The translations under genes were made by a program, and so were the position numbers. A DNA stretch of 63,694 nt, counting the filler, from Catajapyx aquilonaris (Eukaryota), in the NCBI GenBank assembly GCA_000934665.2. It is 3 parts of 3 records of this genome, joined end to end, with 100 filler letters (N's around TTAATTAATTAA, not from the genome) between each part and the next. Parts side by side here need not be neighbours in the genome. Positions count along the whole stretch, not along the records: positions 1 to 21,153 come from JYFJ02006124.1; positions 21,254 to 42,402 come from JYFJ02006126.1; positions 42,503 to 63,694 come from JYFJ02006127.1. One strand, given 5' to 3'. Below are positions 4,586-43,074 of this stretch, piece after piece. Each line of letters opens with the position of its first letter. Positions within the stretch are counted from its first letter, which is position 1. The notes under the pieces were generated by a model. The model was not told the DNA's origin. It searched no databases and was given only the letters and a program-made list of their open reading frames with translations.

Positions 4586-4913
4586 AGGGGAGGCGAAGTG
4601 GCGCTGCGGTAACGTATGCGCCCGCGGATGTTAAGGTCCCGGGTTCGATCCCAACCCGGGGTTCCCCCCTTCATCTCGCGCAGAGTGAGACCGTCTCTGG
4701 CTTCGTTTCGGGTGGCGATCCTTTCACATATGCCACCCGGGGGAGTTCACAAAACGGCACATCAACGACATTGCACACGCACTTTGCACATCCCCTCCTA
4801 CCTACCCTTGGAACACACTAAATACTATCTTAGTATACCGGTTCCACCCAAATGGTGGTATTCCACCCCCCTAAAGGAAATGTAACTCCCAATGGGGTAA
4901 TGCAAAAAAAAAA
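4586..4913 (+). mobile_element. tRNA-derived SINE, head A + tail T1
   Basis: A box TGGCGCTGCGGT, B box GGTTCGATCCC, poly(A) tail, 14-bp TSD AAATCCAATTTCAT (4572-4585/4914-4927). Confidence 0.93.
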
Positions 4914-5243
4914 AAATCCAATTTCATCACTGACTCGTACCAAGATCTGCTCGTACTGACTCCGTTTTGTATGCCTAATTGAACTTCAAAATTTGTGAAA
5001 ATTTGTGGAATGTTACCAGTTGAAATTTCTCGGATTTCCAAGAAACAAATATACCCATTATAGATATTCTGTTAACAGTCCCAAATCCATGCTCTATGAG
5101 ACCAAGTACCGGTACTTATTTTTCTTAACATTCAGTTTTTAATCTTTTTATCATTATGCAATCATGTCAAAAGCAGGCGCGTTCCGATGAATCAGAAGAA
5201 TGCTGAATGTTTGAACAGCGTATTTTGTATATTATTTTCTGTT

Positions 5244-5548
5244 GACCGAAGCAGGTTGGCATAGTGGATAAGGCGTCCGACTGCTAATCGGAAGGTCCTG
5301 GGTTCGAATCCCGGTGCCGGCAACTCTAACCGTGGTTTTCTGTGGTTTCCCACGGTTTCTCCAGGAGAATTCCGGAGTTGTTTCCTAATAAACAGGCCAC
5401 AGCCGCCCCCTTCCTTTCCTATCCTCTCCCAAAGAGCAATAAGTAAAAATGCAAGCAAAGAGTTCCAGACAAAACAAAAATTCCCCCCTAAAGAGCCGCC
5501 GGCTGATAACGGGGTATGAATTATTATAATTATTATAATTATTATTAT
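5244..5548 (+). mobile_element. tRNA-derived SINE, head B + tail T1
   Basis: tRNA-like head TGGCATAGTGGATAAGGCGTCCGACTGCTAATCGGAAGGTCCTGGGTTCGAATCCC, (ATT)n tail, 16-bp TSD TATATTATTTTCTGTT. Confidence 0.93.
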
Positions 5549-6696
5549 TATATTATTTTCTGTTACATTTGGAGTGTTTATGGTGTTTATGATACAATAT
5601 GTTAGTCTGGGTTGGAAGTTTCCTCAAAATTTAAATCAGCGACAGTAAAAACTGGGGAAACATTACTTTCACCTACAAGAGGCCTATTTATTAAATTCTA
5701 TCGTGTTATCGGTACTTTATTCCAAGACATCTCAAATTTGACGGGGTATTTGATACAGGCTCTTGGTCAGGGTTCAGTGTAGCCTAAAAATCACAATAAT
5801 TGTCCATCAACATACGGTAAAATATCATTTTCACTTATCCGTACTTATAATGTAGATTCCACAAGTTCTTGAATTCAATGGTATTTTTATGGTACACCCT
5901 GTATGTCCTGGTACAAAATAACCTAGAAAATCAAAATTAGGACCGCGAAAACATCGGGAAATGTTATTTTCACCTACTTGTAATGCTTATTATTATACAC
6001 GTTCGCAGATTCCATACTGTGTTTTTAGTACACCCTGTAGGTGTAGCTTCAAAATAACCTAAAAATCGAAATCAGCAGCCACGAAAACATGGGGAGAAGT
6101 GTTTTTTACGTACTTATACGATTTAGTTGAGGAACTATCATTTTCTTTCGTTTGTTTTTCCTGATATTGGCCACTGTGCGGCGTAGCCAGGGTAAGGGGG
6201 GGGGGTTATGTGAGGGTAGAACGAAGAGGCCCGCCGCAGGCGATTTTTTTTTGCTGTTCAAGCTCACATAAAGCTACAATATTTGCGCATATGCGTTTTA
6301 ACACCTTAAAATTGCGGATTGGAANGGGTTACAACCCCCCCTGCCTACAAGTCACTTCACTGGATGATTCTCTCAGCACTGTTCCCACAACGTTCCCACC
6401 AACGCAGATCTCAAATCGCGTCTCGCCAGAGTCGAGAGTCACAAGTCCAGGTTCACCACAATTTCAGTAGCACGTACTGTACCATTCCATCTGAATCTCT
6501 GCTCATCACGCGAATCGAAATGTTATGCTTCCAAGCATTTCTCCCGTGGAGTATACGGAAGAAACTATCGCCACAGGCTTCACAGACGTCACAATAATAG
6601 TCATCTGTAGTTTTACCTCGTCCAACCTGGTTCCTGATTTCACTAGGTAGTCCCCCCAAAGAATCGACTATATTTTTCTTCCTATACTCTATATAT

Positions 6697-7810
6697 GGGT
6701 GGTTCTCCAAAAACTTACCAATACCATGTCCCAGCATAATAACTCAAAAATGGCTTGACTGAGAGAGTTGATTTTTTAAACATTTGGAGAAGCAGTTGAC
6801 ACCTAGCCATCCCCATGAAAACAAAGAAAAATATTAAATTAAGTTTTACTGCAAAAAATGTCAAAGGGCCTAAAATCACTATTCTTGGCATGTCCCGATC
6901 TCATTTTAAAGCATGCAATATTTTCTTACAGTTTTATTATTAACATTAGACAAGTTTCAATACTATAATTAAATTGTACATAGTTGCAGGTATAAAACAA
7001 CATTTTTAAAACGATTTATTCATTTGACATGACCTTGCTGCATCACTCCAAAGTGTGTCCCGAGTTTTCCCAGAAATAAAAAGTTCACACTCCTGGCTCA
7101 TTTTTCTATGTCACAAAATAGCTTAAATATTTTGAAATAACTGTGATTCCATGGCATGAAGGGTCTTCTTGAACCCACAGAAATTTCCTGAGTCAACGTT
7201 TGTTCTGGACCGTGATATTATAATCCTAATGCATCCAAAGGCCATTCTTCTGGCTCCCAAACTCCCGGACATAAAAAGTTCACACTCCTGGCTCATTTTT
7301 CTATGTCACAAAATAGTTTAAATGTTTTGAAATGACTCTGATTCCATGGCATGAAGGGTCTTCTTGAACCCACAGAAATGTCCAGAGTCAACGTTCGTTC
7401 TTGACCGTGATATTAATCCTAATGCATCCAAAGGTCATTTTTCTCCCGGAAATTAAAAGTTCACACTCCTGGCTCATTTTTCTATGTCACATCATAATAG
7501 CTTAAATGTTTTGAAATAACTGTGATTCCATGGAATGAAGGGTCTTCTTGAACCCACCGAAATCTCCATAGACAACGTTTGTTCTGGACCGTGATATTAA
7601 TCCTATTGCTTGCATAGGTCATTCTTCTGGCTCCCGAACTCCTGAAAATATTCACTTTCCTGGCATTAGAATATCAGAATTAGTTCTCCATATTTTTCCC
7701 TGATTTGTGACCTCATATAGAGTAAGTGAGAATTTTTCCAGATTTTTAAAACAAGTTTTGAAATTCATTAATTCTTGCTTTGAAAATGGTAAATTTTTGG
7801 AGAATCACCC
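6697..7810. mobile_element. Non-autonomous TIR element, Sola2-like ends, with internal ~190-bp tandem array
   Basis: TIR GGGTGGTTCTCCAAAAACTTACCA / TGGTAAATTTTTGGAGAATCACCC, flanked by ATAT. Internal units start AAGTTCACACTCCTGG at 7081, 7276 and 7457, with a partial unit near 7650. Confidence 0.8.
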
Positions 7811-7826
7811 ATATACGTACTCTACG

Positions 7827-7932
7827 TATATCGCTCAAAAACATATAGAGACGATTTTGCATTTGATTCAAGTGCAGGCAGCACTTGAGTCAAATGCAAA
7901 ATCGTCTCTATATGTTTTTGAGCGATATAGTA
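7827..7932. mobile_element. ~105-bp palindromic MITE (TACTATATCGCTC family)
   Basis: Near-perfect palindrome. Other copies at 25874-25980 and 47469-47574, half copy at 8674-8738. Confidence 0.85.
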
Positions 7933-8072
7933 CCTACTCGTGATGTTTGGTTTAACACTTACCTTAGTTCATGGGAATAATGTAGCACCATTTCTAATAA
8001 ATGCTGGGATTTACCTTCAACAACCTCCACACGCACTTGAAAGCGACTGATCGACTCGACGCTCCTTATTAT

Positions 8073-9353: not shown

Positions 9354-9496
9354 GGAGATCCTTACACCAACTGCATTTTAGAAAGGCATAAAATGCACAC
9401 TAGTCATCTTTATCTAATTTGAAGCAAAACTGAACAGGTGTCTGAAATTATGCAAGCTTGTCCTCCATGTATATCTTTATGAGATTGTTACACGTG

Positions 9497-9849
9497 GGGG
9501 AAGGACGGTGTGGTGGTCGAGATGGTAACGTCTTGGCTTGCTGAGTGAAAGGTCCCAGGTTCGATCCCCGCCTGGGAGTTCCCTTTCACCTGCGTCGGGA
9601 GGGTCTCTGCGCTACACCTATGGAGGTGTCTGACAACCTAACCTCCTAGAAGGGGGATTGCACATGGCCCAACCTTGAGACATTGCACTTGTACCCATTT
9701 CCCCTCCCCCAAAAAATCCATATCCTCTCCCATTGTCCTGTTTCCTTGCACCGGAGATTGAAGAAGAAAAGTACAAGAAAATTGATTGTGGTGTACCACC
9801 CCCGAAAAGGCCTATGTAAACCTATCACGGGGTAAAATAAATAAATAAA
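9497..9849 (+). mobile_element. tRNA-derived SINE, head C + tail T1
   Basis: A box TGGTCGAGATGG, B box GGTTCGATCCC, (TAAA)n tail, 15-bp TSD AGATTGTT(A/C)CACGTG. Confidence 0.92.
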
Positions 9850-10970
9850 AGATTGTTCCACGTGTGCAGTACACAATCAACATAAAATAAGACGACACTG
9901 TCTGACAGTTTTCACAAAAACTTTCGTCGGTCTAAAAAAATTAACATTTAGGGGGCTATGCCCTCCTCAAAAAGGGGGTCACAGGGTCATTTTGAGCAGG
10001 TAACTTTAGGGGCGTTTTTCACCCTTTGGGGTGGGCTACCAATTCACCGAATTTCAATAAAATCGGGGAGTGACACTTGGATAGTGTCCCTTTCAGCTGA
10101 TAAATGGCTCAGACGAACAAAATAAAAAGGGTCGGCTCCAGCTGACGACATGACTGTGTGGAATAAACTGCTCAACAAACTTATCCTGCGAAAGGAGTCA
10201 TTAGTACCTTTGCAAAATGTAATACACCTTTATACTTCCTGTATACTGATATGATCAGATAGTACTTCAGTAGCGTACACAATCCACGATCGCAAGACTA
10301 ATCCAGATATAGACTTTTTACAGATAATACGGAAAAATCATTGATGTAAAGAGTAACACTCGTAACTTCCGACGTACTTAAACTGATGTTCGTACTTAGA
10401 ACAAACAGAACGTCAAGTGCACGGACTGGTCAAGTGTATAACCAAAAATAAATATAAATAAAAGTTTTGGAGCGTCCGAAAGGACGGCCAAACCACCACG
10501 CAAGTCCTCAAATAATTATTATCACAGCTGTGCTGCAAAAGAAAACACTAAGGTAGAAAAAAAGGAAAGATATGGTGTATACAAAAGTAAAAATAGATCC
10601 AAATAATATGCTACGGAGGTCCGTGTGGGATAGCCATGTTACACGTGCTTAGATATACAGTAGTAGGTTATAGGCTGCAAATTGCACAGTCATATATTCT
10701 ATGTCGATCAAAATACAGGTGGACCGTTTCATCGATTGCCTGATTTTACGTATATAGACTACCATTTACTACACTGGCTCCGGTGATGTCATAAGTGAAG
10801 GCACAGAAAACAATAGGATATCCTGAATAGGATGAATGAATCCTTAATGGGGACGAAACTTTCTGATTGGACAGACGGTATGAGGCAGCTGCAGATATAG
10901 AGAAAAGCTGCGATAGTGATAACGAACAGGTAGATGGTAATGTAGGTGACATATGTAGTGAGGTCACAGG

Positions 10971-12532: not shown

Positions 12533-13153
12533 ATTTATTATTACCCTAATGATGATCACCTTCGTATCCAGCTCTGTATAGGCAACCATTGCAGTTGTCT
12601 GGATCAATCTACCAGGCGATCTGCCCCCCCAAAAAGGTGTCATGTGTGTGGTTGCCTGTAGAAGTAGGCTGATATATGCTCGTCGTCCTCTACATTGTCA
12701 GCGGTGGTCCCTCGACATTTCTCACCCCTACATTTTAAACTTTTTAGGACCTATTATTGCACTGGCAAATTACACTATGTATAGACACTTAATGTTCAGA
12801 AGTAGGCCTATACATTTTCTCGAATTCTTTTCTCATGGCTGTTTTTGGAAAACACGGAAGCAAAAAATTTGGGCCTCTTTGGGTCCAAAAAACTGGAAAA
12901 ATTGTCAGTGTGATGGCTGCTTCATAACGGTATAACGGCAAAAGCTGAAATAATTAACTTGTCTGTAATAATTGTTCATAATTGTGCGTGGTGAATAAGA
13001 CAGTAGCTAGTCATGAAGTTACAAAACTTAAAATATCCCTTCTTCTCCTGCTGGTTCCTTTAAGGTTTAAGCTCTACTGGAAACTTTTTTTTTCGGCCAA
13101 TGGCCGTTTTCGGTGTTTGAGACTAACATAATATATTATACTGTAGGTCCTAC

Positions 13154-13499
13154 GGGGAGGTGTGGTGGCCGTGATGGTAACGTCACGGCTTGCTGAGTGA
13201 AAGGCCCCAGGTTCGATCCCCGCCTGGGGAACTTCCCTTTCACCTGCGTCAGGAGGGTCTCTGACCTGCACCAAGGAGGTGTCTGGCCACCTAACCTCCT
13301 GGGGAACAGCACATGACCCCTTTACAGACATTGCACTTGCACCAATGTTCCCTCCCCAAAATCCCTACCCCTACCCTACATCCTAGACTCCTTGCACCGG
13401 TGTATGAAGTTAAACGGAGAGAAAATGGTGGTATCCCACCCCCCTAAAAAGGCTAAGCCTTATCACGGGGTAACGTAAATAAATAAATAAAATAAATAA
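13154..13499 (+). mobile_element. tRNA-derived SINE, head C + tail T1
   Basis: A/B boxes, (TAAA)n tail, 16-bp TSD ATACTGTAGGTCCTAC. Confidence 0.93.
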
Positions 13500-13865
13500 A
13501 TACTGTAGGTCCTACACCGCTGCAGAAATGGTGATTAGTGCTTGTTACTCTGATAATTTATACACATCATATTCCAATTATTCTGCTATACGTTTTGCTG
13601 TTCCATTCATGTTTTGGTATAAATAACGGCAGATTCTGACTTTTGGCGTCACCTCACACACAAAAAAACATGAATGATCTTCGTTTCAACAACACTTACG
13701 TATTGTTGCTTATAAGTTAGAGCCATGTCCACTTTTTTGTTCACACATTATCTATCTCAGGACGGGCAAATTGGACTCGCAAGCAGATGGTATACCGTAC
13801 CATTGGTTTAAAAATGGTTCCATAAACAGTGACAGTTTGACATTCACATTCTTTAATATGGATAA

Positions 13866-15343
13866 CACAGCGCAACAAAAAAAAACTTTCGGAGTGTTAT
13901 TCGGAAACCACTATGCACATCATGTTAGTAGGACCCAAAGTAGCTGGGAAACGCCCGGGATTTCTCTCCCAAAATGTGCAGTGGGTCAGGGTGACCAAAA
14001 ATCGGAAAAAATCAAAATATTGATGTTTTTTGGCCTATTTCCAGGTCTGGCAACCACTGTAAGTTTCGGATTTTGTTTTTGCTGGCATTAGGTGTTGCCT
14101 GGGTCTAGTCTGAAGCCACTATGGTGTTTAAAGTCAATCTTTTATAGAAACTGTGGTTTTCCAGAGTCGTTTTTATGGAAAAAAAATCCGTTTTTTGGTA
14201 CTTTTTCGTCAATTTTTGGGGAACAGTGTATGGACTTTTTTTTTTAAAAAATGTGTAGCGTAATGTGCTCTTTAGTGACCCTACAATCAAGGAATAATAG
14301 TAGAACTTTCCTATGCAACCCTAGTACGCGTGTGCAAAAGCCCAATCTTTGGTAAAATCGCGTTTTTTCGAATTTTTGGTGATTCGACTTTTTTCAACAT
14401 TTAAAACCAAATATTCCTCGGCTTTAAAATATATGAACTCTTCTTAGGGCCAGTTGCACCGACCTCAGTATATCTTAGAACCTCGGGTATATCAAGAATT
14501 GCCATAGCAACCATTGTTGACCAACAATGATTGCTATGGCAATTCTTGATATACCCGAGGTTCTAAGATATACTGAGGTCGGTGCAACTGGCCCTTAGTC
14601 TAACAAACTGTCAGGGACCCCCATAGTATGGAAAAAGACTGCGATTTCCATAAGCAACCCATGTACGCGCACGCGTACAAAAAAAAAACACGCGTACATG
14701 GGTTGCTTATGGAAATGGTAGTCTTTTTCCATACTATGGGGTCCCTGACAGTTTGTTAGACTAAGAAGAGTTCATATATTTTAAAGCCGAGAAATATTTG
14801 GTTTTAAATGTTGAAAAAAGTCGAATCACCAAAAATTCGAAAAAACGCGATTTTACCAAAGATTGGGCTTTTGCACACGCGTACTAGGGTTGCATAGGAA
14901 AGTTCTACTATTATTCCTTGATTGTAGGGTCTCTAAAGAGCCCATTACGCTACACTTTTTTTTAAAAAAAAGTCCATACACTGTTCCCCAAAAATTGACG
15001 AAAAAGTACCAAAAAACGGATTTTTTCCATAAAAAGGACCCTGGAAAACCTACGGTTTCTATAAAAGATTGACTTTAAACACCATAGTGGCTTCAGACTA
15101 GACCCAGGTAACACCTAATGCCAGCAAAAGCAAAATCCGAAACTTACAGTGGTTGCCAGACCTGGAAATAGGCCAAAAAACGTCAATATTTTGATTTTTT
15201 TTTCCGATTTTTGATCACCCTGACCCACTGCAGATTTTGGGAGAGAAATCCCGGGCGTTTCCCAGCTACTTTGGGTCCTACTAACATGATGTGCATAGTG
15301 GTTTCCGAATAACACGCCGAAAGTTTTTTTTTGTTGCGCTGTG
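13866..15343. mobile_element. Giant palindromic non-autonomous DNA transposon, Chapaev3-like ends
   Basis: CACAGCGCAACAAAA...TTTTGTTGCGCTGTG termini, TAA on both flanks, ~650-bp arms meeting near 14680. Confidence 0.85.
14447..14594. mobile_element. 148-bp palindromic PIF/Harbinger-type MITE
   Basis: GGGCCAGTTGCACCGACC...GGTCGGTGCAACTGGCCC with TTA TSD. The empty site is visible in the opposite arm (~14755-14770). Confidence 0.92.
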
Positions 15344-15464
15344 TAATGCTTCGAGGCCGTTACAGGATCCAGCCTTTACAGACAGTCATATTTCCAGCGT
15401 TTGCCTATACCTACAACGTTGTATCTGGGCATTTTTGCAATAGAGCGGACACGCAGCGACGATT

Positions 15465-16096: not shown

Positions 16097-18680
16097 CTTT
16101 GGAGTCTGGGGACACGCGCGGCTTTTGGCGCCTCTGTGAGCATTGTCATTTATTCGGCCACTTCCCAGTCGTGTTTGTTGGATGCAGCTTGATGCCCTCT
16201 TTCGATTGATGTGCGTAAATTGTCGGAGAGTGATCTCTGTATGCGTCATTTTCAGTAACGAACCTGAGACATCCGCAATCGTTGCGTTGGTTCGTTACCG
16301 AAAATAACAAAAAGTTCCCGTACGCACCCTATACCAATGATTTGGAGCGTCAAACTTGCAGACCTCCGTGGGAGTCGTGAAAATAATAAAGCAGTGAGCA
16401 GAGATTCAGCCGAATACAATAACTTCATGTACCGTAACTTATTTTTATTTGGACGGTAACGAACCAACGCATCCACCTTCCGCCGAGAGAGCTCCCTCCG
16501 ATCTCGGCTTCCAGCTAACGACAGCGACATACACACCAGTCCCGAATCGTGAAAACGCGTTCGAAAGTAATAGAGTCATAATTAAACTGCTTCAGTACAT
16601 TATGTAAGAATGGTGTTTGGAATGTTTTTTGTGTCCCTGATTTATATTATTTTTGAGGCTATACTTTTAACCCAGGACTATACAAAATGTATCGAAAGCT
16701 TTGATTCTCATTGGGGAGGTGTAAGAAAAGCTCAAGAGGCAAGAAACAGGGACATTAGTTGGTACCGGGAAGGCGAGAACACACCACACTTGTAAACGTT
16801 CCCATGTACAGGAAAATGAAGAGTTCTTGCGACAACTCCTGATCAGCTAGCTCTAATCCGAAACTTAGTGCCTTCGATGAGAGACACCACAAAATAGCGC
16901 GAGAAGTTCAACGAAGATGTAACATTATTTATTTATCAAGGACACAGATACTGACTCCGATGAATCGGAAAAATTCTGAGTGTTTCAACCAGGTTTCAAC
17001 AGCATTTTACATTTTCGATACATTTTTGGACGATTGTGTCACCAAATCGGTGGACATCAATAACAAAAGGGATCTTTTACGACTCTGGTTTATTGTTCAT
17101 AGCCAACTGACACAAGACAAAGAACGGACTCAAGGATAATAGAAATGGGTATAGGATGGAGCTGAGGAGGGACCAGTTACCGGGGGCAGGGTCACCTACA
17201 TGAGTGCCACCCCCACCTAGACAGGGTATTGTCTCTCCGCCATATTGGAACTAAATCAGATAGGAAAATTGCATAGGAAAAAAAACAATTGAAAAAAACA
17301 AAAACGAATCGCTTGCCAATTCCCTATCCTGCAGCATGGGGCGGCCATATTGGAACTAGATTGCATAAGGACTACGTGGAGACAATACCCTGGTTAGGGT
17401 GGGGGAGGCAACCATGTAGGGGACCCTGACCGGGGGTAAAGGTCCCCCGGCAAAAGGCCTCTTACATAGGTGGTCAGGGACTTTTATACTGTTCAGGTTG
17501 GTGCAAAGCATGATGGGTTTGGAGGAATAGATCAGATATGTACACACTTGTCATCACTTGCGTCATAGGTAGGCTACATCCAGACTCTACAGGTTCCATA
17601 ACTCCAAGAAGGAGAATGGGGCAGATGAGTTGACTAGAGTTGTTATTCATTTAGTTATCACATGCCAGTAAAATTGGGATACAACCCGACTCATGCCCAT
17701 GACCTCAATTAGGTCACAATTGCATCAGGGCACGTTGGATGGAAATACATTATAATTTTGCCTGTTTGGCTTCTTGGTCTGAAAAATAATGATTTTGAAA
17801 GCCTTATTGTGCGATTAAAACCAAACGCAGCAGATTTGGACCGAGCACTTCAAAACTAATATACACACCTATACCGAAGAGTCATTTGAAACATTTCCAT
17901 TGTTGCAGTGCTAATCTCCAATTGAAAAACTTATGCAATTATTATCATTGCTTTGCTTGAACAATTCAATAGGGTGGTTCCATTTCAGATCAGCCAGTGA
18001 GTGAAAAAAGGTGTCAGGTCATAGTCATCGATTTTTTGGATTAAAAAAAAAAAGTGAAACCCACAACCAATTGAACTCTTATGGAGCAATCAGTTTTACA
18101 AGCTTTTTTACTTATCGAGATATTAATATTTCTTTTAAGGGGTACCAAAATCACAATTACGGGAAGATGCACTTTTTCCATTGATGCTTTCAATGAGTAA
18201 AATTATTTCGGGAACTGGTCTGAAAACCAATATGACATTTTAAACTCATGCTCCGGTTACGGTAAACGTGACGGTTGTGCTGATTATATTTTGTGATATA
18301 CTTGGTGACCCCCTACACGCTACACTACTTCGGTTATATTTCGGATATAGCCTACTCGTAGTTCATTATGACTTTAGAAGTAACTGCAAGGATGTTGAAA
18401 GACACTAAATGAAAGCAAAAAATACCAGCACTTTTCCTAAATTTGCATCTCATTTATCAAGAATATATACCAGGTTTTGATAGAACCTGTCTTTCCTTTA
18501 TGAAGATAATATAAAAGAATATTGCATATTTAAAATGGGGTTTTCCAGATATTAATTTTTGAAATGTGCATGTTGTTGCGGCATAAAAACAAAAATCACC
18601 GCTCAGTAATAAATTCGTATCTCACTGAATACAAATATATACCGAATTTTCATATAATTTAAATTTATATCTCACGTATA

Positions 18681-18682
18681 TT

Positions 18683-18713
<31 letters not shown>

Positions 18714-18960
18714 TCATACCCCGTGCTAGAGCCTTTGGCTCCCTTAGGGGGGTGGATTACCACCATTGGATGGGACCAGGGATAGGGAAGGAAGGAAGCG
18801 GCTGTGGCCTATTTTTACGGAACCGACCCCGGAATTGTCCTGGTGGGGACCATGGAAAACCACAGAAAACCATGGTCTGGGTCGCCGGCCCCGGAATTCG
18901 AACCCAGGACCTCCCGATTAGCAGGCCGGCTCCTTATCCCCTACACCAACCTGCTTCGGT
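18681..18960 (-). mobile_element. tRNA-derived SINE, head B + tail T1
   Basis: Homologous to 5244, (TAAA)n tail, TSD TATATCTCACGTATA. Confidence 0.92.
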
Positions 18961-19506
18961 TATATCTCACGTATAAAAACCGGGTTTTGACACTACGTAA
19001 TTTTATAACAAGTCTGTCTTTGTAAAATAAAAAATAAAATTTTAAATTTTAAAATGGCTTCTTCGAGAAAATATTTATTGGAAGTGTGCACATTGTATAG
19101 CACAATGTCGAAAGTTGTCACCTTACCAAATTTTGTATCTCACTCATAAAAAATATATACTGGGTTTTGACACTACGTAATTTTATACCATGTCTTTCCT
19201 TGTAAAATAATTAAAAAAATATTTAAAATTGCATTTTTGAGAAAATAATTTTTGAAATATGCATGTTTTCGCTTGTTGCCATATTTTCACCTCGCATATC
19301 TCAACTACACACGGAGCTAACGAAGGTTTTATTTCATAGCCTGGAGGGGGTCACCGAGTATATCAAAAAATATAATCAGCACAACCGTCACGTTTACCAT
19401 AACGGTGTATTAAATTGCGAAATATGCGCATTTTGACCAAAATATGCCAGATCGGAGATTATTTTTTAGGTGACTGTACCATTAAATACGGTAAATGTAT
19501 GCATTA

Positions 19507-19840
19507 ATATCCGGGGTAGTGCTGACCTCATCAGAGGTATGTAGCACGGACCTTTATTTATTTTTGTCGTGTACATTGGAGCCTTTATACGTAACGCCCT
19601 GGCCCACGGGCAGGAGGACAGGAGGGGATGTGCAAGGTGCAGTGCAATGTCTTAAACATGGCCATTTTTAGTGAACTCCCCCGGGTGGTTTAGTCTGTGG
19701 AAATACCACCCGAGACGAAGCCAGAGGTGACCCTGAACTCTGCACGAGATGAAGGGGGCGTCCCCGGGTTGGGATCGAACCCGGGACCTTAACATCCGTG
19801 GGCGCGTACGTTACCGCAGCACCACTTCGCCTCCCCTGAA
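19507..19840 (-). mobile_element. tRNA-derived SINE, head A + tail T2
   Basis: Head homologous to 4586 but a different 3' end. TSD AAATGTATGCATTA. Confidence 0.92.
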
Positions 19841-20557
19841 AAATGTATGCATTACATAACAGTGTGTTATTCCAAAAGCATGAGTTTAAAATTTTATATT
19901 GGTTTTCAGACCAGTTCCCGAAATAATTATACTCATTGAAAGCAATGGAAAAAGTGCACCTTCCCGTGATTGCGATTTTGGTACCCCTTAAAAGAAATAT
20001 TAATATCTCGATAAGTAAAAAACTTGTAAAACTGATTGCTCCATAAGAGTTCAATAATATTGAAAAAGGTGATATTGAAAAAGGTGTCAAGTCATAGTCA
20101 TCGATTTTTTTGAAAAAAAATCGATGACTATGACTTGACACCTTTTTCACTCACTGGCTGATCTGAAATGGAACCACCCAATAATATAATTTATCACTAT
20201 TAGTTGACGTTCTTGAGTATTTTGTGCATCGTGGACAAGGTCTTTAAAAACTAATGCATAGAATGTACCGTATCTACGAGTATTTTATTTATACTATTTA
20301 ACTTTATTTTTAAGGCTGAAACTATTGGATATAATATAGGGTATCATATCATCAACACAATGATGGCAAGAAAATTGTTAGGCAGAAAAGTCAGCTACCC
20401 TGAGCCGCTGTCCTTGTCGTCCTCAAACGAATAGGCAACTGACAATAGAATGCCACATGTGACTTTCGCCATCCCTCTTAACACGACATGACAATGCTAC
20501 TGTTATGTTTCTGTATGCAGTATATCATATTAACGCTGGAACGCTATGCCCTTGCAG

Positions 20558-20742
20558 GTACAGGCGAATCTGGAAAATCCACTTTCATCAAACAGATGAA
20601 GATTATTCACGGAAGCGGCTTCACAGACGAGGACAGGAAAATGTACATCAACATGGTGTACGAGAATATCTTCATGGCGATCCAGAACATGATTTATGCC
20701 ATGGACCGTCTGAAAATTCCTTATGCAGATCCAGCTAACTAT
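20558..20742 (+). CDS. Galphaq: G protein alpha-q subunit-like, second coding exon (P-loop)
   Basis: (G)[61 protein letters not shown]. Acceptor CTTGCAG is in phase with exon 1. Homology ends at GCAAGT. Confidence 0.92.
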
Positions 20743-21153
20743 GCAAGTCATTGCCCTATGATCCTCTTCTCACTTTACTCGTTATCTCCAGTGTGGAGTC
20801 ATCGCATAATATTGAGTTGCACATACTTCATGGGCATTGGGCAAGAAGTCAAAAAATCTTATGAATTCACATATCATTTTTTCACTTTTATGTAGAATTA
20901 AGGTGATTATTTTCTGGCTTTACAATATGGCTACCACAGTCATGTGGCAATAATATCACAATGTTTATACACTACTATGATCTTTGAGCTACAGTAGCCA
21001 AATGGTATGCCTGTACGTAGGGTGTAGCGTCATTGGACGAATTTTTTCGGATCAAAAGGCACATTTCAGGTTTTGTTAAGTGGACCTCCCAAACTTCAAA
21101 TATGAAAAGAAATTTTTTTCCCGACAAGTGTAACACCCCCTTTTTTGACCTTG

Positions 21154-21253
21154 NNNNNNNNNNNNNNNNNNNNNNNNNNNNNNNNNNNNNNNNNNNNTTA
21201 ATTAATTAANNNNNNNNNNNNNNNNNNNNNNNNNNNNNNNNNNNNNNNNNNNN
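21154..21253. other. Assembly gap with artificial six-frame-stop linker
   Basis: N44-TTAATTAATTAA-N44, identical to 42403-42502. Confidence 0.97.
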
Positions 21254-22821: not shown

Positions 22822-23175
22822 TTTTTTTTTTTTTTCTCGGGTTAGTGCACCGCCCTAATTGGGCATCTGGCACGGTACCTTTATTTGCTTAAGATGTACA
22901 AGCTTTTACAAGTGGTCCTTTTCCGTAACGCCCGGGTACCGCGAGCGAAGGGGGAATGAATGGGAGGGGATGTGCAAAGTGCAAGTGCAATGTCGTTGCT
23001 TGGTCATTTTGTGAACTCCCCCGGGTGGCTTAGTCTGTCGGAAATTGCCACCTGAAATGAAGCCAGAGATGGCCCAACTCCGCACGGATAAAGGTGGGAA
23101 CCCCGGGTGGGGATTGAACCCGGGACCTTAATATCCGTGGGCGCGCGCATTACCGCGGCGCCACTTCATCTCCCT
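22822..23175 (-). mobile_element. tRNA-derived SINE, head A + tail T2
   Basis: Poly(A) tail and 15-bp TSD AAGCTGCTCTAAGTT (22807-22821/23176-23190). Confidence 0.92.
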
Positions 23176-26693: not shown

Positions 26694-27019
26694 CAGTAAG
26701 GTATATGTACAGTATTTTTAACACATGCCTGTGACAGAAAATAAAGAGTTTTTTGGTTAATATCACTGTTTCTTAGTTTCATATTGCTCCTATTACACCG
26801 GTACAATTTCATTCCGTAAATGATCGGTTATCCGAACAATCAGTTATCCGAACACTCCCTGGGCAGACTCTGTTCAGATAATCGATGCTCCACTGTATTT
26901 AAATTACATTATTCATATTACATACATATCATATTATTTTATATTACATTATTCATGTATTACATTATTTCCCCCAAAAAGGTTGCCTCGGTCCACAATG
27001 GGGTAACTGAAATAAAACA

Positions 27020-27130
27020 TATATTACATTATTTATAGCTATTATTTATGATATTTACATTATTTATATCTATTATTTATGATATTTACATTATTTATAT
27101 CTATTATTTATGTTTGTAACATTATTTATG
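27020..27130. repeat. AT-rich ~30-bp minisatellite
   Basis: TTACATTATTTATATCTATTATTTATGATAT repeated ~3.5 times. Confidence 0.7.
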
Positions 27131-27570: not shown

Positions 27571-28678
27571 TATAAACTGAGGCGAATAAATTCTATTCAA
27601 GCTTTCCAATAAAAAAATAGAATATGTGCCCTGTCAATACAAACCATCCAGAAATTCGTCCACGCTCGGTTCCATGATAACAGAGGCGGCGCGGCGCGGC
27701 GTTCAGAATCCTTCAGGCGGAACTGAACTTCCAGCTAGCACCAATTCCAGACCAAAATGATCAGAAAATGATCTCAAGTCATCATAAAAGACCTCTTGGA
27801 ACTAGTGAACGGCATGGACCAAGAAAAAGATCGTCGCCATGTTGGACGATACCATCGATATTCCCGATTCTACCGGTATCATCAATAACTGAAAATTGGC
27901 GGGAAGAAACAAAAGTGTCGTGTATCGATTCATTATTTGCTTGTCAGTTTGTCCAGCAGCCGTGTTTGTTTGTTGGTTTGTCCAGTTGTTTGTTTGCGAT
28001 GGACTCGAGACGACTGGTGGTCACCAGCACCTTCAAGCTGCGTGGGTTCAAATCCACGGAAATGCCACATTTGCGACAAAGAGTTTGAGCAGAAAAGGTC
28101 CTTGACGAGGCATTTACAACATGCTGTGCACAAGCAGGACGTGCAGGCACCATCCCTGCAACACAGCAAAATAAGCAATAGCGGTGGGATTCGCTGCTGC
28201 CATGCAATCTGTGAGGCATCTTTTGCTACTGCAGATGGCTATTGGCATCACGTAGAAATAACGGTGCACAAAGTAGTTTCTGCACAAGGCACGGAGCTGG
28301 AATTTGATTCATTAGCAGGTAAGACAGTATGTTATAACGTGTTAGTCTATTCATTAGGACTTGATTTACATGTCATTACAATTCCAAGCATCCTACTGTC
28401 AATAAACGTTTTCCACATTGCCACACTATATATGATGATTACACTATAAAGGTTGAATACAGAATTTAAGCCATTGTTGTGCAAGTATATACAATACAGA
28501 CCACATGATTATTTTCTACACTATCTACAGAATTTCAAATCTGGCTACAAGAAGAGGAGAAAAACACCCAGGCAAAATTTGTACGCAGGAGAGGACCAAA
28601 GAAATCAGAAAAAAAACAGGAGTGATGACTTATCACTATCATTGTCATCGTAGTGGCCAATACCAGTCAACAGGACAA

Positions 28679-28909
28679 CTTTAATTGATATTTAAGGAGG
28701 TTGGCCCAGCATTTGCCATTCAACCTCCAAGGATAGGGAAGGAAGAAAGCGGCTGTGGCCTATTATACGGTAGCGACCCCGGAATTATCCTAGAAAGACC
28801 GTGGAAAACCACAGAAAACCACGGTCAAGGTTGCCGGCCCCGGGATTCGAACCCAGGACCTCCCGATTAGCAGTCGGACGCCTTATCCACTATGCCAACC
28901 TGCTTCGGT
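28679..28909 (-). mobile_element. tRNA-derived SINE, head B + tail T3, inserted in MULE coding region
   Basis: 14-bp TSD AGTCAACAGGACAA (28665-28678/28910-28923). Confidence 0.9.
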
Positions 28910-30530
28910 AGTCAACAGGACAAGGTGTCCGTCACTTAAAGATTATTGGGTCTTGCAAGCTGGGATATACCTAGCTGTCCTGCTGCAATATTAAACTGCC
29001 AATAAGACCATTGATGGGAAATATTTTGTCCAGTAGGCCTACTTGGACATTTTTATGGCCACGTGGACAATCGACTTGGACACCTAACCCTGACCATCAC
29101 TTCCCAACGTCAAGATATTGCAGGTTGGTATTATCAGAAATGAGTATCATTGCTGTATTTTTGTATCCCTGATTGCTAACGCCAATTTAAAATTTGGCAG
29201 CAAAATTGGCAGCAGCTGGGTGGCAGATCGGCGAATAATATCTGACATACGTCAGATGACAGTCAGTGGCGATCTTGAAAGACTCCATTTGATCAAACAC
29301 ACAACATCAAACAACATAAGAGCAGCACATGGCATTCCCTTCGTGGCGAACAATTTGCAAAACCATGCAAATGATGCTGTCAGCGTCGCTACCTGGGTGC
29401 AAGACATGCAATCTCGAGGACTAAATAATCCTGTCCTCTTCTACAAAGGACAGGGTGAACCGAATGAGGGTCAAGAAGGTATTGGGGAAGATGATTTTAT
29501 GTCAATTATTATGTATCCATTACAAAGAGAAATGGTGAGCAAGTACAGACATGACAAGGTGTGTATTGACTCAACAGATGGAGTCACTAGGTACGACTTT
29601 GAACTGACCACCCTGATGCTAATAGAACACAAAACGCAGCAGGAAACCTTTGCTCATGCTCATCTGATGAGCATGAGCAAAGGTTTCCTGCTGCGTTTTG
29701 TGTAAGCTCCAGAGTGAACACCAGTGTTATGACAATATTTTTTTCACCGTATTGAGGCTGTCTGTGGAAAAATACTAGCAGATGTATTTTTGTCTGATGA
29801 TGCACCATTGTTTTTTAATGCTTGGTTGCAAGTAATGGATGTCCCTAAGCACATATGGCTTTGCTCCTGGCATGTTGATCGTGCCTGGCAAGGAAAATTA
29901 TAGCTTCTATAAGATGCCTGAAGAAAAGAAAAGAAGTGTACCAATGTCTGAAGGTGTGTCAGATGACTTTGGATGAGGATAACTTTAATGTCATGTATGC
30001 AAAGCTCCTGGAGCTATTGCAAAAGGATAAAGGTACTTTAGATTTCTACGCATACTTTACTGGATACTATGACAGAAGAAAAGAAAGTTGGGGTTATTGC
30101 TTCAAAAAAGGAGCTCGACGTAATACAAATATGCACGTGATGTCTTACCACCAGAAATTGAAACACAATCATGTACATGCAGGGTAAGAAGTGTAAGTGT
30201 GTGGATAAGTGCATTGCTGTGCTGGAAGAATTATTGATCCTTGATAAAGAATTTGATGCCAAAATTAAATTGGAAATGGGGAAGTTAACTTCCAAAATTG
30301 CAGATTTAAGACGAAAACATAAAGAGCTAGGCCTCTGAGTTGAAGTGTAGCATGAAGAGTAAGGAAATGGGGTGGCAGGTCTCAGAGGAAGGAAGTGGGA
30401 AAATACGCGAAGTGAAGGGAAAAAATGCAGATCATTATTTGTGCACAGGGCTTTCTTGCCCTACGTTGTGTGATAAGTGTAATGTGTGTATCCGTAAGGT
30501 TTCATGCACTTGTTCGGATAATTTGGTTAA

Positions 30531-31521: not shown

Positions 31522-32083
31522 TTAAGGGGAACCTGTGCAAGCACATACATTGTGTATTTGGCACAAAACCCCACACTGTCCCAAGCATAATTGGCATTAC
31601 AGTAGACGACACTTTGCAAGAAGAGAGAGAATGTCATGAAGAAATTGTGCAAAAGAGGAAAGTGTTGGGCGAAATGGGTAATGCTAGGGAGTCAGTCAAA
31701 AGAAAACTAGATGTACTTTGCCACGAATTTCAAGATGCTGTAAAAAATTATCAAAAATCAGATGAGTCAGTGGCAAAAGGTGCCACTAATCATGTGCTGG
31801 CAGCATAAAATTGATGAAAGTTGAAAGGAAGCCTATAATGGACTTTGAGCAGAAGGACATGGCAGCACCAAAATTAATGCTAATATACAAAAGCAAAGAG
31901 GTTTTTTTTCTGTGAAGCGTAAGAGGGCCTCCAAAAAAAAACTTAAGAAAGCTGACACGAAGGAGGCACTACTGGAGTTGGAGGATATAATTATTGCAAG
32001 GCAAAACAGACCTTATTGTAAATTCAGCCAGTATATAAGTGCTTTGCCTTGCAATATTTCCTCCATTTCACACCTGATGTAAA

Positions 32084-32461
32084 ATATTATTTTATTTTAT
32101 TTTTTATTTTACGTTACCCTGTGATAGGGCCAGAGGCCCTTATAGGGGGGGGGGGGTGGAATACCACGTACATTTTTCCATCAATTTTTTTTTAATTTTT
32201 CTTCTAACTCCGGTGCAAGGATGAAAGGACATGGGGTAAGGATAGGGATTTTTGGGGAGGGGACACAGGTGCAAGTGCAATGTCGGAAATGGGTCATGTG
32301 CAGTCCCCCAGAACGCTAGGTTGCCAAGACGCCTTCTTAGGCGCGGGCAGAGACCCACCACCCACTGACGCAGGCGGAAGGGAGATTCCGGGCGGGGATC
32401 GAACCCAGGACCTTCCTCTCAGCAAGCCGAGAGTTACCATCTCGGCCACCGTGCCTTCCCC
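32084..32461 (-). mobile_element. tRNA-derived SINE, head C + tail T1
   Basis: Homologous to 9497 and 13154. TSD CACCTGATGTAAA. Confidence 0.9.
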
Positions 32462-32686
32462 CACCTGATGTAAATTTAAGTAAGTTTGATGTTAATAAAT
32501 AAATCTTGTATGACAAAATAGTAAGACGAATCTTTCTTTTACCCACCTCTACCCCCATTCCCATGCCCAACCCGCTCGATAGTGTCTGCCATTTAATATT
32601 TAGAGTTGTGTTAATAGGAGAGTTAACGAAGATATTATTGACTGAATGAAGTGAGGTCTCTCCTTTTCAAGACTGAAGTGGCATTT

Positions 32687-32689
<3 letters not shown>

Positions 32690-32763
<74 letters not shown>

Positions 32764-33052
32764 TTGTACCCCGTGCTAGAGCCATGGGCCCTCTTAGGGG
32801 GGTGGGAAACCACCATATTTTTTATCTGGAACTCTTTGCTTTCGTTTTTACTTCTCGTATATATGGGGATGGGATAGGGACGGAAGGAAGCGGCTGTGGC
32901 CTATAATTACGGACACGACCCCGGAATTTCCTGGTGAGACCATGAGAAACCACAGAAAACCACGGTCAGGGTCGGCGCCCACCGGGATTCGAACCCAGGA
33001 CCTCCCGATTAGCAGTCGGATACCATATCCCCTCCGCTACCACTGCTTCGGT
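32690..33052 (-). mobile_element. tRNA-derived SINE, head B + tail T1
   Basis: Long (ATT)n tail and TSD AAGTGGCATTTTTA. Confidence 0.92.
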
Positions 33053-33103
33053 AAGTGGCATTTTTATTTCCCGCGATAACATGAAAATTGTTCAACAGCC
33101 TGG

Positions 33104-33198
33104 GCACGAGATGAAGGGGGTGTCCCCGGGTTGGGATCGAACCCGGGACCTAAACATCCGTGGGCGCATACGTTGCCGCAGCACCACTCCGCCTCCCC
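33104..33198 (-). mobile_element. SINE head A fragment
   Basis: Only the tRNA-like 5' ~95 nt is present. Confidence 0.8.
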
Positions 33199-34669
33199 GA
33201 TATTCTCCTCCTTTCTCATGGAGTAGCATAGAAGGAGGATGTTCCGAAATGAATTCTTTTTGCACAGCTATATGGGGTAGTGGGAAATCGTCTTCCTGAA
33301 ACGCGATTCATGGTCTAGCAGTCCAAAATGTAATCCTACAAATCCCACTTTCGCAAACTCTGGTCGTGCCAAACTTGACGAGTAAAAAACGATGCTGTAG
33401 AGTTTCCTTAATTATAAGATAACTATTAGCTTATTAGTGGCTCCGAAGTCTGAACTGTTGCCGATAATCGACAGCCTGTCAGATGAGTCTCATTATGCCA
33501 TAGGGTCAGTAACCATGGCGGCAGCTTGACAGGAACCGTCCCCGTCGCTTTTTCTACTGCAGGAATTTGCATTTTGAGCTCACTACACCAGGGAGAGAGG
33601 CATGCATGTTGCAACTAGTGCTTGATGGATGACACTGGGGTTGCACAATACTTGCAGGATGCAAATGAGAAATCGGGACTATGAAAAGCAGCGATTAGAG
33701 AAAAGTCTCCTCCCTTTCACGCCTATAGGGCGTGCCTGATGCCATGGCACCTTTGCTGTGTCAGCGACTGCCTGTCGACTTTACTGGATGTGACCTGCTG
33801 ATTAAGTGCAAAAGTGGGCCTGAGGCCACCATATGGCATTTGCCTCAAATTAGCACACCTGAATGCACGTTTAAAAAAATTGTTTATCGGTCAAGTATAC
33901 CAGCTACCCAGAGATTTACCCAGAGCCACCAACTTTACAAAATATTTACCTCACGCACATATACATCTTACACTGTAACACTGAGTCTTCTGGAGCATAT
34001 TATAGGTAAAGCTGAAGAGAGCAGCCGCTGAATATAGCTCCCTCCTCCTCCTCCTCCTCCTCCCTCTTTCCCGTCTGCATATTATACACAAAAGGCATTG
34101 AAAAAGTGCTTGTAATTGTCACTGGTCGGCTTCAAAGAAGATCCATTTATCCAATTTCCCGAGGCAAAGGCACCCCTCTAAAAGCCACTTCCCGGAAGCG
34201 AGTGATGAAACTACAACGTTTTGGCCTTCGAACCTCACTTAGGAGTGCTATACGAGTAGACACCTTGACAAAATTTTGCTAAGGGCTCATTGCCAGGGAA
34301 TAAATTACATTAATTAGAGGTAATATGTGCGGTCAAGTGACATTACCGGAATGACAGGCTGTACTTGTGGAAGGGGTCAAACCTGGCGGGGATAGTGATA
34401 GTGAAACCCACTACTTTATAATAGCAATACCGTGACTTGATTTAATTATTAGTTAAGCTTACCTGGTAACTTGCAAAAAATGACAATATACCTGCTGCAA
34501 TTTCCATTTCGGTGTGGTTAATCAAGTATCATACATTTCATCAAACAAAGGGGGTCAATACCCCCAAAATTCACACCAAGACGGTTGTTGTATACATACG
34601 AATATTTTTAATTTATGCCCACAGAAGAAGCTCTGAGGGCTACATTCGTCTTTGTTTAACACTCATTTA

Positions 34670-41239: not shown

Positions 41240-41500
41240 CTCGTCTCTGAGGCCGTTGTGCGTGGCGAGCAGAGGCTGGTGGATGCAGGCCTCAATTTTG
41301 TCGCCATTGTCTTTTTTGTCGGTCTCGTCTTTCTTTTCCACGTCGATGGAGGTCGAAGACTCGGCGGAATCGCTTCCGGACAAGGAAAGGCCCAATCCGA
41401 GACCCAGTCGATCGGACATGGAGTCTCCCTTCAGGCTGCTACCGCTCTCCAGTTCCATCTCTCCTTCCATCTCGTCCACCATTTTGACTTCTTTCTCATC
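41240..41500 (-). CDS. Internal coding exon (acidic/Ser-rich) of unidentified gene
   Basis: Acceptor TTCTCAG, donor GAG|GTAAGT, 261 nt phase 0-0, translating DEKEVKMVDE...THNGLRDE. Confidence 0.72.
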
Positions 41501-42402
41501 CTGAGAATGAAATGCCATATCAGAACCAGACTTTTCCAGATGTCATGGCGATACAAGCACACAATCTACCATCCACAGGGGGGCTACTAGGACCGACCGT
41601 TTATCCTGAAATATGCACCTCCCAGCACACAGTATCGATACTTTGGTTGCCCTGAATAGTCAGGATGAAGCATAAATATTGTTCCCAGTTTTTCTGGAAT
41701 CACTCCCAAAATAACACCTGTTTCTCGTGATTCTGGTACACACCCTTTACAATTTCGGATAATACTCTTCCGATTTTGACATTGAATGAAAAGAATAACT
41801 AGGTGTAAAAAGTTGATATATTTGACCCACCTTTCTCTCTTTTTTTCCCACTGCCTATGAGTTTAATAACGTTTCAACCATCGTGACAAAAGTTTTTTCA
41901 TCATGTGACGTCTACATTTGCTCCGTGAGAATTGAACTGTCGTACTTCGCTCCATTGTATTTCATACAATGACGTGTCTCACGAGGCGCGTAGAACACCG
42001 TGGAGCAGATGTTGAATTATTACTGCGCCTCTTGCTGACACGCCACACTTAAAGAGTGACAGCAAAGTTTTTTTTAAAACTCACATCCTTGGATTGTTCT
42101 AAATCACTCTTCCAGTCTCCATCCGAAATGAGAGAGATCTGAAGAATTTTAATTAACAAGAAAATATGCTTAAGTGACATGGACACATTTCACGATTTTA
42201 TTACAGTTTGTTCAGGAACGACAGTCCTGACAGTCTTTTCGTAATATTAATATATAAGGTATATTATATTATATATAATATTTAATAATAATCAATAGAG
42301 GTGTGATTTGAAAAACTACCCAGCACAGGAGGCGTATACTCATCCAGGTCACTCGCAATCGACAAAGTCGATTGACGTCAAAATGACGTCGCCAATTCTC
42401 CT

Positions 42403-42502
42403 NNNNNNNNNNNNNNNNNNNNNNNNNNNNNNNNNNNNNNNNNNNNTTAATTAATTAANNNNNNNNNNNNNNNNNNNNNNNNNNNNNNNNNNNNNNNNNN
42501 NN
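42403..42502. other. Assembly gap with artificial linker
   Basis: N44-TTAATTAATTAA-N44. Confidence 0.97.
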
Positions 42503-42592
42503 TTTATTAGTTCATATGTTGGGTTAGCTTGCGTCTCCCTTCATCGCTGACTACCCCTCATAGGGAAATGTCGTGATGTTGTTGTTGTTGTT

Positions 42593-42663
<71 letters not shown>

Positions 42664-42732
42664 CAGCACACTTATCTTGAGGGGCTAACAACAAGAGTGG
42701 TTCAAGTGACAAAAAAAACGAGAAAAGTTATA

Positions 42733-43074
42733 ATAATAATAATTCGGGTAGTGCCTGACCCTCTTGGGGTATGCGGCACGGACCTTTATTGTATCTTTAT
42801 TGTACATACACTGGAACCTGATTTTTGAAGCGCCCGGGCCCACGGGCAGGCTGACAGGAGGGGATGTGCAAGGTGCAGTGCAATGTCTTAATGTGGCCAT
42901 TTTTAGTGAACTCCCCCGGGTGGTTTAGTCTGCGGAAATACCACCCGAGACGAAGCCAGAGGTGACCCTGAACTCTGCACAAGATGAAGGGGGTGTCCCC
43001 GGGTTGGGATCGAGCCCGGGACTTTAACATCCGTGGGCGCATACGTTACCGCAGCACCACTCCGCCTCCCCTCA
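42733..43074 (-). mobile_element. tRNA-derived SINE, head A + tail T2
   Basis: TSD AGAAAAGTTATA. The paralogous empty site is at 51417-51428. Confidence 0.93.

What the first reader, a model, noticed from the sequence alone, without database searches (positions are those of the whole stretch)
4586..43074. Mix-and-match SINE system: three tRNA-like heads combined with three different 3' tails
Seen: eleven TSD-bounded SINEs use three unrelated heads. Head A is at 4586, 19507, 22822 and 42733; head B at 5244, 18681, 28679 and 32690; head C at 9497, 13154 and 32084. Tail T1 (CCCC...GGGGTA stem, usually preceded by a GTGG-N4/5-CCAC hairpin) occurs on A, B and C copies. Tail T2 (GTGC..stem..GCAC-TACCCG) occurs on three A copies, and tail T3 on one B copy. 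A and C also share a GACATTGCAC body block. Each combination has its own 12-16-bp TSD, so each retrotransposed as a unit. Established: SINE 3' ends mimic partner LINE 3' ends. Inference: modules are exchanged repeatedly, letting heads switch between LINE partners.
Basis: partly seen in the sequence, partly recalled or inferred. Interest (0 to 1): 0.7.

Follow-up and report, generated by a model that had tools for sequence, protein, structure and literature searches.

The report
SINE families swapping LINE-derived hairpin tails
Several very common short jumping elements (SINEs) in this animal genome have traded the small RNA hairpin at their tail end, the handle that a partner LINE enzyme grabs; this is a clear but already well-described way in which SINEs evolve.

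Summary
The eleven SINEs are real: ten have exact 12-16-bp target-site duplications, one has 15 bp with one mismatch. Every head-tail combination seen in the window recurs elsewhere in the genome. Two corrections apply. Heads A and C are not unrelated: they align over about 215 nt, so their shared block is inherited. The system is hub-and-spoke, not 3x3: T1 sits on five heads, while B+T2 and A/C+T3 gave zero genome-wide matches. T1 matches the 3' stem-loop of one large, radiating APE-RT LINE clade. A fourth tail on head A (T4) matches another family of that clade. No LINE partner was found for T2, and only a non-significant one for T3. T1, T2 and T3 fold into one two-tier hairpin with a variable upper stem. 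Swaps are few but real: near-identical 5' halves carry different 3' halves. Two T1 elements sit nested at the T2 border, and bare-tail insertions exist, which hints at a DNA-level route. Mosaic SINE evolution with tail exchange is published. The scan had already noted the shared hairpin and tail swapping on other pieces of this genome. Verdict: new families of a known kind, low interest.

The parts
4586..4913 (+). SINE, head A (subfamily A2) + T1 tail + poly(A); TSD 4572-4585 / 4914-4927
   Evidence: near-identical copies
5244..5548 (+). SINE, head B + T1 tail without the GTGG hairpin + (ATT)n; TSD 5228-5243 / 5549-5564
   Evidence: ARAGORN calls the head tRNA-Ser(GCT)-like
9497..9849 (+). SINE, head C + T1; TSD 9482-9496 / 9850-9864 with one mismatch
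13154..13499 (+). SINE, head C + T1; TSD 13138-13153 / 13500-13515
18681..18959 (-). SINE, head B + GTGG hairpin + T1; TSD 18960-18975 / 18665-18680
19507..19840 (-). SINE, head A (subfamily A1) + T2; TSD 19841-19854 / 19493-19506
22822..23175 (-). SINE, head A (subfamily A3) + T2 variant + poly(A); TSD 23176-23190 / 22807-22821
28679..28909 (-). SINE, head B + T3; TSD 28910-28923 / 28665-28678
32084..32461 (-). SINE, head C + T1 variant; TSD 32462-32474 / 32071-32083
32690..33052 (-). SINE, head B + GTGG hairpin + T1 + (ATT)n; TSD 33053-33066 / 32676-32689
42733..43074 (-). SINE, head A (A1) + T2 + (ATT)n; TSD 43075-43086 / 42721-42732
26971..27021 (+). Bare T1-type end with no head, starting at the first base of the C-run; 13-bp flanking repeat 26958-26970 / 27022-27034. 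It lies in AT-rich repetitive DNA, so the TSD is weaker evidence, and its predicted fold differs from the usual T1 fold.
33104..33200 (-). Head-A fragment (tRNA-like part only), about 50 bp upstream of B32690; no TSD found
60503..60741 (+). Twelfth copy: head A (A3) + body; no clear tail or TSD
58020..58196 (-). Head-D SINE piece with a Vhc-like body; this family carries T1 elsewhere in the genome, but this copy shows no tail

Best explanation
These are tRNA-derived SINEs of two lineages (A/C and B) that borrow the reverse transcriptase of LINEs through a 3' two-tier stem-loop: a lower stem, an A-rich internal loop, a variable upper hairpin, then TA and a short repeat. The dominant partner is one LINE clade that has radiated into many families in this genome. 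Its ends are T1 and related stems such as T4 (shown by sequence). Tails were exchanged a few times, and each new combination then amplified as its own subfamily (shown by trees and copy counts). The GTGG-hairpin+T1 module probably moved between SINE lineages rather than being captured afresh from LINEs each time (inferred). T2 and T3 are probably read by the same or a sister LINE clade through their shape, or derive from families that are extinct or unsampled (inferred, not shown). The swap mechanism is most likely template switching by the RT, or nested insertion of a 5'-truncated end at A-rich junctions (inferred).
For: LINE ends: 27 of the 102 RT-anchored loci end in a T1-pattern stem within 1.6-2.0 kb of the RT start. 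T1, T4 and six other stem types fall in one 54-row clade of a quick RT tree (SH-aLRT 97). Six of 7 window T1 tails align to LINE ends better than all 40 shuffles, and so does T4 with L150/L151. Multi-copy: T2 867 matches, T3 396, T4-type 125 (SINE, LINE and bare forms together), B+T1-type 1785, each with 0 in the reversed control. Shape: six window SINE tails (three T1, two T2, one T3) and one LINE end fold as two-tier hairpins. Inner segments fold better than shuffles: mean z -2.3 for T2 (n=29), -1.9 for SINE T1 (n=19), -3.1 for LINE T1 (n=20). Swaps. The GTGG-CCAC hairpin occurs on A (22 of 26), C (10 of 13) and B (2 of 10) T1 copies but on 0 of 27 LINE T1 ends. TSD lengths overlap for T1, T2 and T3. 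Precedent: PMC4758252, PMC4824008, PMC5786205, PMC11481361.
Against: No LINE ends in T2. The only hit among 93 regions is a SINE remnant in L070, and 15 atypical T2 copies fetched were head-A SINEs (12, one degenerate) or orphans (3). T3's best LINE match (L251/L116, sister group) is reached by 8 of 40 shuffles, and A4586's T1 by 4 of 40. Only 150 of 929 RT candidates were scored. The AU test is borderline (p = 0.047), and one T1 label in it (L058_674) is doubtful. Whole-tail folding z-scores are modest (-0.95 to -2.4). Tail type changes only 4 times on the head-A tree (shuffles: minimum 17), so head and tail are mostly congruent.
Confidence: 0.8

Rival explanations
1. One reading: three unrelated heads, bodies and tails recombine freely, and each tail selects a different LINE clade.
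For: T1 is on heads A, B, C, D and E. Head A carries T1, T2 and T4, and head B carries T1 and T3. The genome holds other LINE groups: RTE-like, RNase-H-bearing, R1-like, R2-like (names from recall). T2 matches none of the T1-clade ends, so a different clade remains possible for it.
Against: A and C are homologous along the 5' 215 nt. B+T2 = 0 and A/C+T3 = 0 genome-wide. C+T2 = 0 of 18 sampled C copies (not tested genome-wide). T1 and T4 map to one clade. The sampled 3' ends of the other groups resemble neither T2 nor T3 significantly.
Confidence: 0.1
2. No SINE-to-SINE exchange: each SINE lineage captured LINE ends independently, and the tails then drifted under selection for shape only.
For: Different SINE T1 tails best match different LINE families (L124, L137, L085, L156, L119). 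For 41 of 47 distinct T1 tails the nearest tail is on the same head, and at least three of the six exceptions are artefacts of overlapping or mislabelled copies. The upper hairpin is hypervariable.
Against: The GTGG-CCAC hairpin is shared by A, B and C and absent from 27 LINE ends. One A2 subfamily joins a T2-type linker to a T1 junction that matches B18681 over more than 20 nt.
Confidence: 0.25
3. The odd combinations are one-off genomic accidents (nesting, gene conversion, assembly chimeras), not retrotransposing units.
For: Nesting is common: LINE inside SINE at C4241, SINE inside SINE in L038, tail-to-tail pairs.
Against: Each window element has its own TSD around head and tail. Each of the five combinations recurs in other loci, with hundreds of pattern matches for T2, T3 and B+T1.
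Confidence: 0.03

Closest known systems
Mosaic HCD tRNA-SINEs of molluscs (Matetovici 2016 PMC4758252; Nishihara 2016 PMC4824008; PMC11481361; passages read)
   Same: Different heads and bodies share homologous LINE-derived tails. One superfamily carries several tails. Tails form stem-loops with compensatory changes. Template switching is the proposed mechanism.
   Different: There the partners are different clades (CR1, CR1-Zenon, L2, Nimb) and comparisons run mostly across species. Here the two assigned tails (T1, T4) come from families of one clade inside one genome, and T2/T3 have no partner yet.
Tail exchange / tail replacement in RTE-related SINEs, e.g. WALLSI2, IdioSINE2 (Kojima 2018 PMC5786205; parts 1 and 3 of 5 and passages read)
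   Same: Recombinant SINE families made by replacing the 3' part with another LINE's end.
   Different: I did not test whether the A/C or B bodies derive from a LINE 5' UTR. The sampled RTE-like ends (L148, L164) do not match T1-T4.
Vhc-domain SINEs of arthropods (PMC4758252, supplementary file 4, passage seen)
   Same: The head-D family body matches the printed Thermobia Vhc stretch by eye, with one 12-letter motif found exactly.
   Different: This concerns head D only. Three motifs from the A/C and B bodies were not found in the 4 files searched (file 1 could not be searched).
RTEX-clade LINEs (RTE superfamily), candidate identity of the T1 partner
   Same: ORF1 + APE-RT ORF2 with a C-terminal Cys/His motif. 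The likeness to RTEX is recalled, not tested. In the quick tree the RTE-like rows lie beside the clade.
   Different: No reference sequences were available, and homologue names gave no clade. Daphne or another CR1-group clade is not excluded.

Membership tests
tRNA-derived SINE (SINE2) | tRNA-like 5' head with A and B boxes | tested here: met
   ARAGORN calls two B heads tRNA-Ser(GCT). The B-box motif is conserved in A and C. A boxes were judged by eye only.
tRNA-derived SINE (SINE2) | Short, non-coding, high copy, flanked by TSDs, simple-repeat 3' end | tested here: met
   231-378 bp; TSDs; 2650 and 3392 first-look candidates for head A.
tRNA-derived SINE (SINE2) | Transcribed by RNA polymerase III | not tested
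   No reads were laid.
Stringent-type SINE/LINE pair | SINE tail homologous to a LINE 3' end in the same genome (T1, T4) | tested here: met
Stringent-type SINE/LINE pair | SINE tail homologous to a LINE 3' end in the same genome (T2, T3) | tested here: inconclusive
   T2: none among 93 regions. T3: best match reached by 8 of 40 shuffles. Only 150 of 929 RT candidates were scored.
Stringent-type SINE/LINE pair | Conserved 3' stem-loop with compensatory change | tested here: met
   In the 100 T2 matches listed (counted by eye) the outer pair is G-C 81, A-T 13, A-C 5, G-T 1. In distinct local copies it is 21, 2, 4 and 3, which is weaker.
Stringent-type SINE/LINE pair | Mobilisation in trans by the partner ORF2 | not testable with these tools
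   Needs a retrotransposition assay.
Mosaic (module-exchanging) SINEs | Same 5' part with different tails, and same tail on different 5' parts, each multi-copy | tested here: met
   counts.
Named SINE superfamilies (CORE, V, Deu/Nin, Meta, Inv, MESC, Snail) for the A/C and B bodies | Similarity to the conserved central domain | tested here: inconclusive
   Exact-motif look-ups in supplements of PMC4758252 and PMC9191728 found no A/C or B motif (one file unsearchable in each). No Repbase, Dfam or SINEBase library was available.
RTEX LINE clade (T1 partner) | RT phylogeny with reference RTEX sequences | not testable with these tools
   The tree lacks named references, and homologues are unnamed.

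The most novel reading that the evidence does not exclude
Tail turnover here is driven inside one radiating LINE clade that reads a hairpin shape rather than a sequence, and it runs partly at DNA level. RT often stops at the base of the stem and leaves 30-60-bp bare tails with their own TSD (L255, L242, window 26971). The AATAAAGG border of T2 is a recurrent landing site for T1 elements (C4241, L038), and T4 joins head A at that same border, starting at its stem base. New SINE subfamilies would then arise when a bare tail lands in an old SINE, and T2 would be a SINE-evolved tail with no LINE ancestor left.
Probability: 0.2. Interest if true: 0.5.

Novelty: new member of a known kind. Interest (0 to 1): 0.25.

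Why it matters
As a principle it adds little: module shuffling and tail exchange in SINEs are established. The genome is still a good test bed. It holds hundreds of natural variants of each tail, many LINE families with family-specific hairpins, and recent swaps between nearly identical heads. These could be used to ask how much a LINE reads shape versus sequence, and whether tails are swapped by template switching or by nested insertion. That mechanism is still only proposed in the papers read.

Tried and rejected
1) I first read C4241 as a LINE and a T2 end primed in one event under one 16-bp TSD. Searches refuted this: the outer TSD belongs to a head-A/T2 SINE, and the LINE is nested inside it with its own 17-bp TSD (one mismatch). 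2) The search for a T2 partner failed: atypical T2 pattern, 49 matches against 46 in the control, 15 fetched; orphan scan; alignment to 93 LINE 3' regions. 3) T3 partner: a protein search with L093 and four fetched ends (of which L253 held no LINE end) gave only a non-significant likeness. 4) T1-then-T2 double tails: 6 matches, no subfamily. 5) Bare T1 tails with a TSD: 0 in the 480-kb systematic sample, 1 in the window (control 17 of 1500 random sites), so they are not shown to be frequent. 6) Naming the LINE clade from homologues or papers failed. 7) The careful RT tree did not finish; the quick tree is reported. 9) Nearest-neighbour test of T1 tails across heads: 6 of 47 cross, at least half of them artefacts. 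10) A planned fourth block of the systematic sample and several further LINE ends were not obtained, so rare combinations and partners may be missed.
Full report
Observation. All eleven elements are present at the stated places. Ten have exact TSDs of 12-16 bp, against 11 of 1500 random position pairs reaching 12 bp. C9497 has 15 bp with one mismatch. The window also holds a twelfth head-A copy (60503), a head-A fragment (33104-33200), a head-D piece (58196) and a bare T1-type end (26971).

Heads. A and C are not unrelated. BLAST aligns them at 61-66% over about 200 nt, and the multiple alignment shows conserved columns from the first G-run through the GACATTGCAC block to the CCCTCC end of the body. 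The shared block is therefore inherited. B shares only tRNA-level likeness with them, and ARAGORN reads two B heads as tRNA-Ser(GCT). The window thus shows two lineages and 5 of 9 combinations.

Setting. The window lies in G000 (285.6 Mb, 20,583 contigs). Ionotropic-receptor-like and G-alpha-like frames in the window (names from recall) point to an invertebrate animal. Head-A queries gave 2650 and 3392 first-look candidates. I worked on about 1 Mb: 60 loci of best head-A hits, 30 RT loci, 80 fetched RT-to-3' regions, 60 systematic 8-kb stretches and the window. This sample over-represents two young A subfamilies.

Head x tail matrix. An automatic table of 129 headed copies gives A: T1 28, T2 33, T4 1, none or cut 14; B: T1 10, T3 4, none 4; C: T1 13, none 5; D: T1 8, none 3; E: T1 1, none 3; F and G one each with none (a few labels are wrong where elements are nested). 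Genome-wide exact patterns gave T2 867, T3 396, T4-type 125 and B-body+T1-type 1785, all with 0 in the reversed control. B-body+T2 gave 0 and A/C-body+T3 gave 0. All 4 T3 places fetched were head B. C+T2 was not tested genome-wide. T1 is the hub, and the other tails look private to one head.

LINE partners. The RT search scored 150 of 929 candidates. Of 102 loci followed past the RT, 27 end in a T1-pattern stem followed by an A-rich repeat; many others are cut or interrupted before their end. On a quick RT tree of 64 rows, T1 ends, the T4 end and six other stem types lie in one clade of 54 rows (SH-aLRT 97), with RTE-like rows and the L093 group beside it (88). A full-length member has an ORF1 frame and an APE-RT ORF2. 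The clade name is not established; RTEX is a recalled guess. Against 93 LINE 3' regions, 6 of 7 window T1 tails and T4 scored above all 40 shuffles. T2 hit only a SINE remnant. T3's best match, in the L093 sister group, was reached by 8 of 40 shuffles.

Structure. Three T1, two T2 and one T3 tail from the window and one LINE end fold into the same two-tier hairpin, with modest whole-tail z-scores of -0.95 to -2.4. The inner segments differ widely in sequence yet fold better than shuffles (mean z -2.3, -1.9 and -3.1 for T2, SINE T1 and LINE T1). This fits recognition by shape, as reported for other stringent pairs (PMC3747384 and PMC4824008, passages).

Incongruence. A tree was built from the 5' ~215 nt of 72 head-A copies; 14 headed copies were skipped as unclassifiable, and one row was relabelled from T1 to T4. 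Tail type changes 4 times (shuffles: minimum 17, mean 23.5), so tails mostly follow subfamilies. T1 monophyly is rejected only narrowly (AU p = 0.047). Direct pairs are clearer: L056 and L058 are 99.5% identical over 200 nt but have different linkers and T1 variants; A22822 (T2) and L003 (T1) are 93.5% identical. The GTGG-CCAC hairpin is on A, C and some B copies but on 0 of 27 LINE ends, which favours SINE-to-SINE transfer of that module. The A copies carrying it are mostly one subfamily.

Mechanism. Shown: units bounded by TSDs, LINE-derived T1 and T4, a shared fold, and a few swaps. Inferred: the route. Two independent T1 elements, a full LINE and an A2 SINE, sit nested at the 5' border of T2 with TSDs covering it. 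T4 joins head A at the same border and starts at its stem base. Bare ends with flanking repeats exist (L255, window 26971), but none was found in the 480-kb systematic sample. Template switching and nested insertion both fit these observations.

Comparison with what is known. Module exchange between SINEs and LINEs, shared tails across superfamilies and several partners per superfamily are stated in PMC4758252 (passages; 4 supplementary files searched, file 1 not), PMC4824008 (passages), PMC11481361 (passages) and PMC5786205 (parts 1 and 3 of 5, passages). PMC9191728 (passages; supplements searched, file 2 not), PMC11203168 and PMC5753468 (passages) added no match. Searches showed no description of these particular families in their listings. 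Repbase, Dfam and SINEBase could not be checked, and the unsearched supplements may hold matching bodies. Earlier notes of this scan report the shared hairpin and tail swapping on other pieces of this genome; they agree but are not independent support.

Verdict. The feature is real and partly as described. These are new families of a known kind, with interest 0.25. The open points are the missing partners of T2 and T3 and the possible landing site at the T2 border.

Noticed in passing
G000:C4241:6314-11600 approx. (L250, L070): A full-length T1-type LINE is nested in a head-A/T2 SINE, with its own 17-bp TSD (one mismatch) covering the 5' border of T2; the SINE's 16-bp TSD encloses both.
   Followed up: yes
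L038: An A2/T1 SINE is nested in an A1 SINE at the same T2 border, with a TSD of about 11-13 bp.
   Followed up: partly
L255, L256, L242, L239, L241; window 26971-27021: Bare tail-only insertions of 30-60 bp (T4, T2 and T1 types) that begin at or just before the stem; L255 has a clean 16-bp TSD.
   Followed up: partly
L052, L221; LINE L150/L151 (C298, C7248): A fourth tail (T4) on head A matches the end of a long-branch family of the T1 clade.
   Followed up: yes
L003, L014, L015, L052, L057, L114, L133: SINEs and LINEs often sit tail-to-tail or head-to-tail in each other's (ATT)n or A-rich tails.
   Followed up: no
L248 (G000:C109:77940-78550): Tandem dimer of B-T3 with the layout TSD-SINE-TSD-SINE-TSD.
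   Followed up: no
L205, L010 (head E); L225 (head F); L181 (head G): Further tRNA-like heads; E carries a T1-type tail, while F and G were seen once each.
   Followed up: partly
window 46042-50235 and 53451-56526 (+): Tandem duplicate of an ionotropic-receptor-like gene in two long frames each (name from recall, no family scan run).
   Followed up: no
window 20482-20895 (+): Exon-like frame resembling a heterotrimeric G-protein alpha subunit (from recall).
   Followed up: no
window 13862-15347, 23823-24332, 56693-57906, 59141-60138, 4192-5936, 18104-20022: MITE-like long inverted repeats; the last two enclose SINEs of this finding.
   Followed up: no
window 7839, 8646, 25888, 47482; also inside the SINE in L018: A ~79-bp palindromic repeat family.
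   Followed up: no
window 24493-24978 (-): Frame resembling the C-terminal part of a PIF1/Helitron-type helicase (from recall).
   Followed up: no
window 21146-21270 and 42395-42519: A 100-bp stretch that is identical at both places, in direct and in inverted comparison, with 8-bp periodicity; the second lies at the join of two contigs and may be an assembly gap feature. Not read.
   Followed up: no
window 26321-26660: A 10-bp tandem array followed by its inverted copy around a short palindromic core.
   Followed up: no
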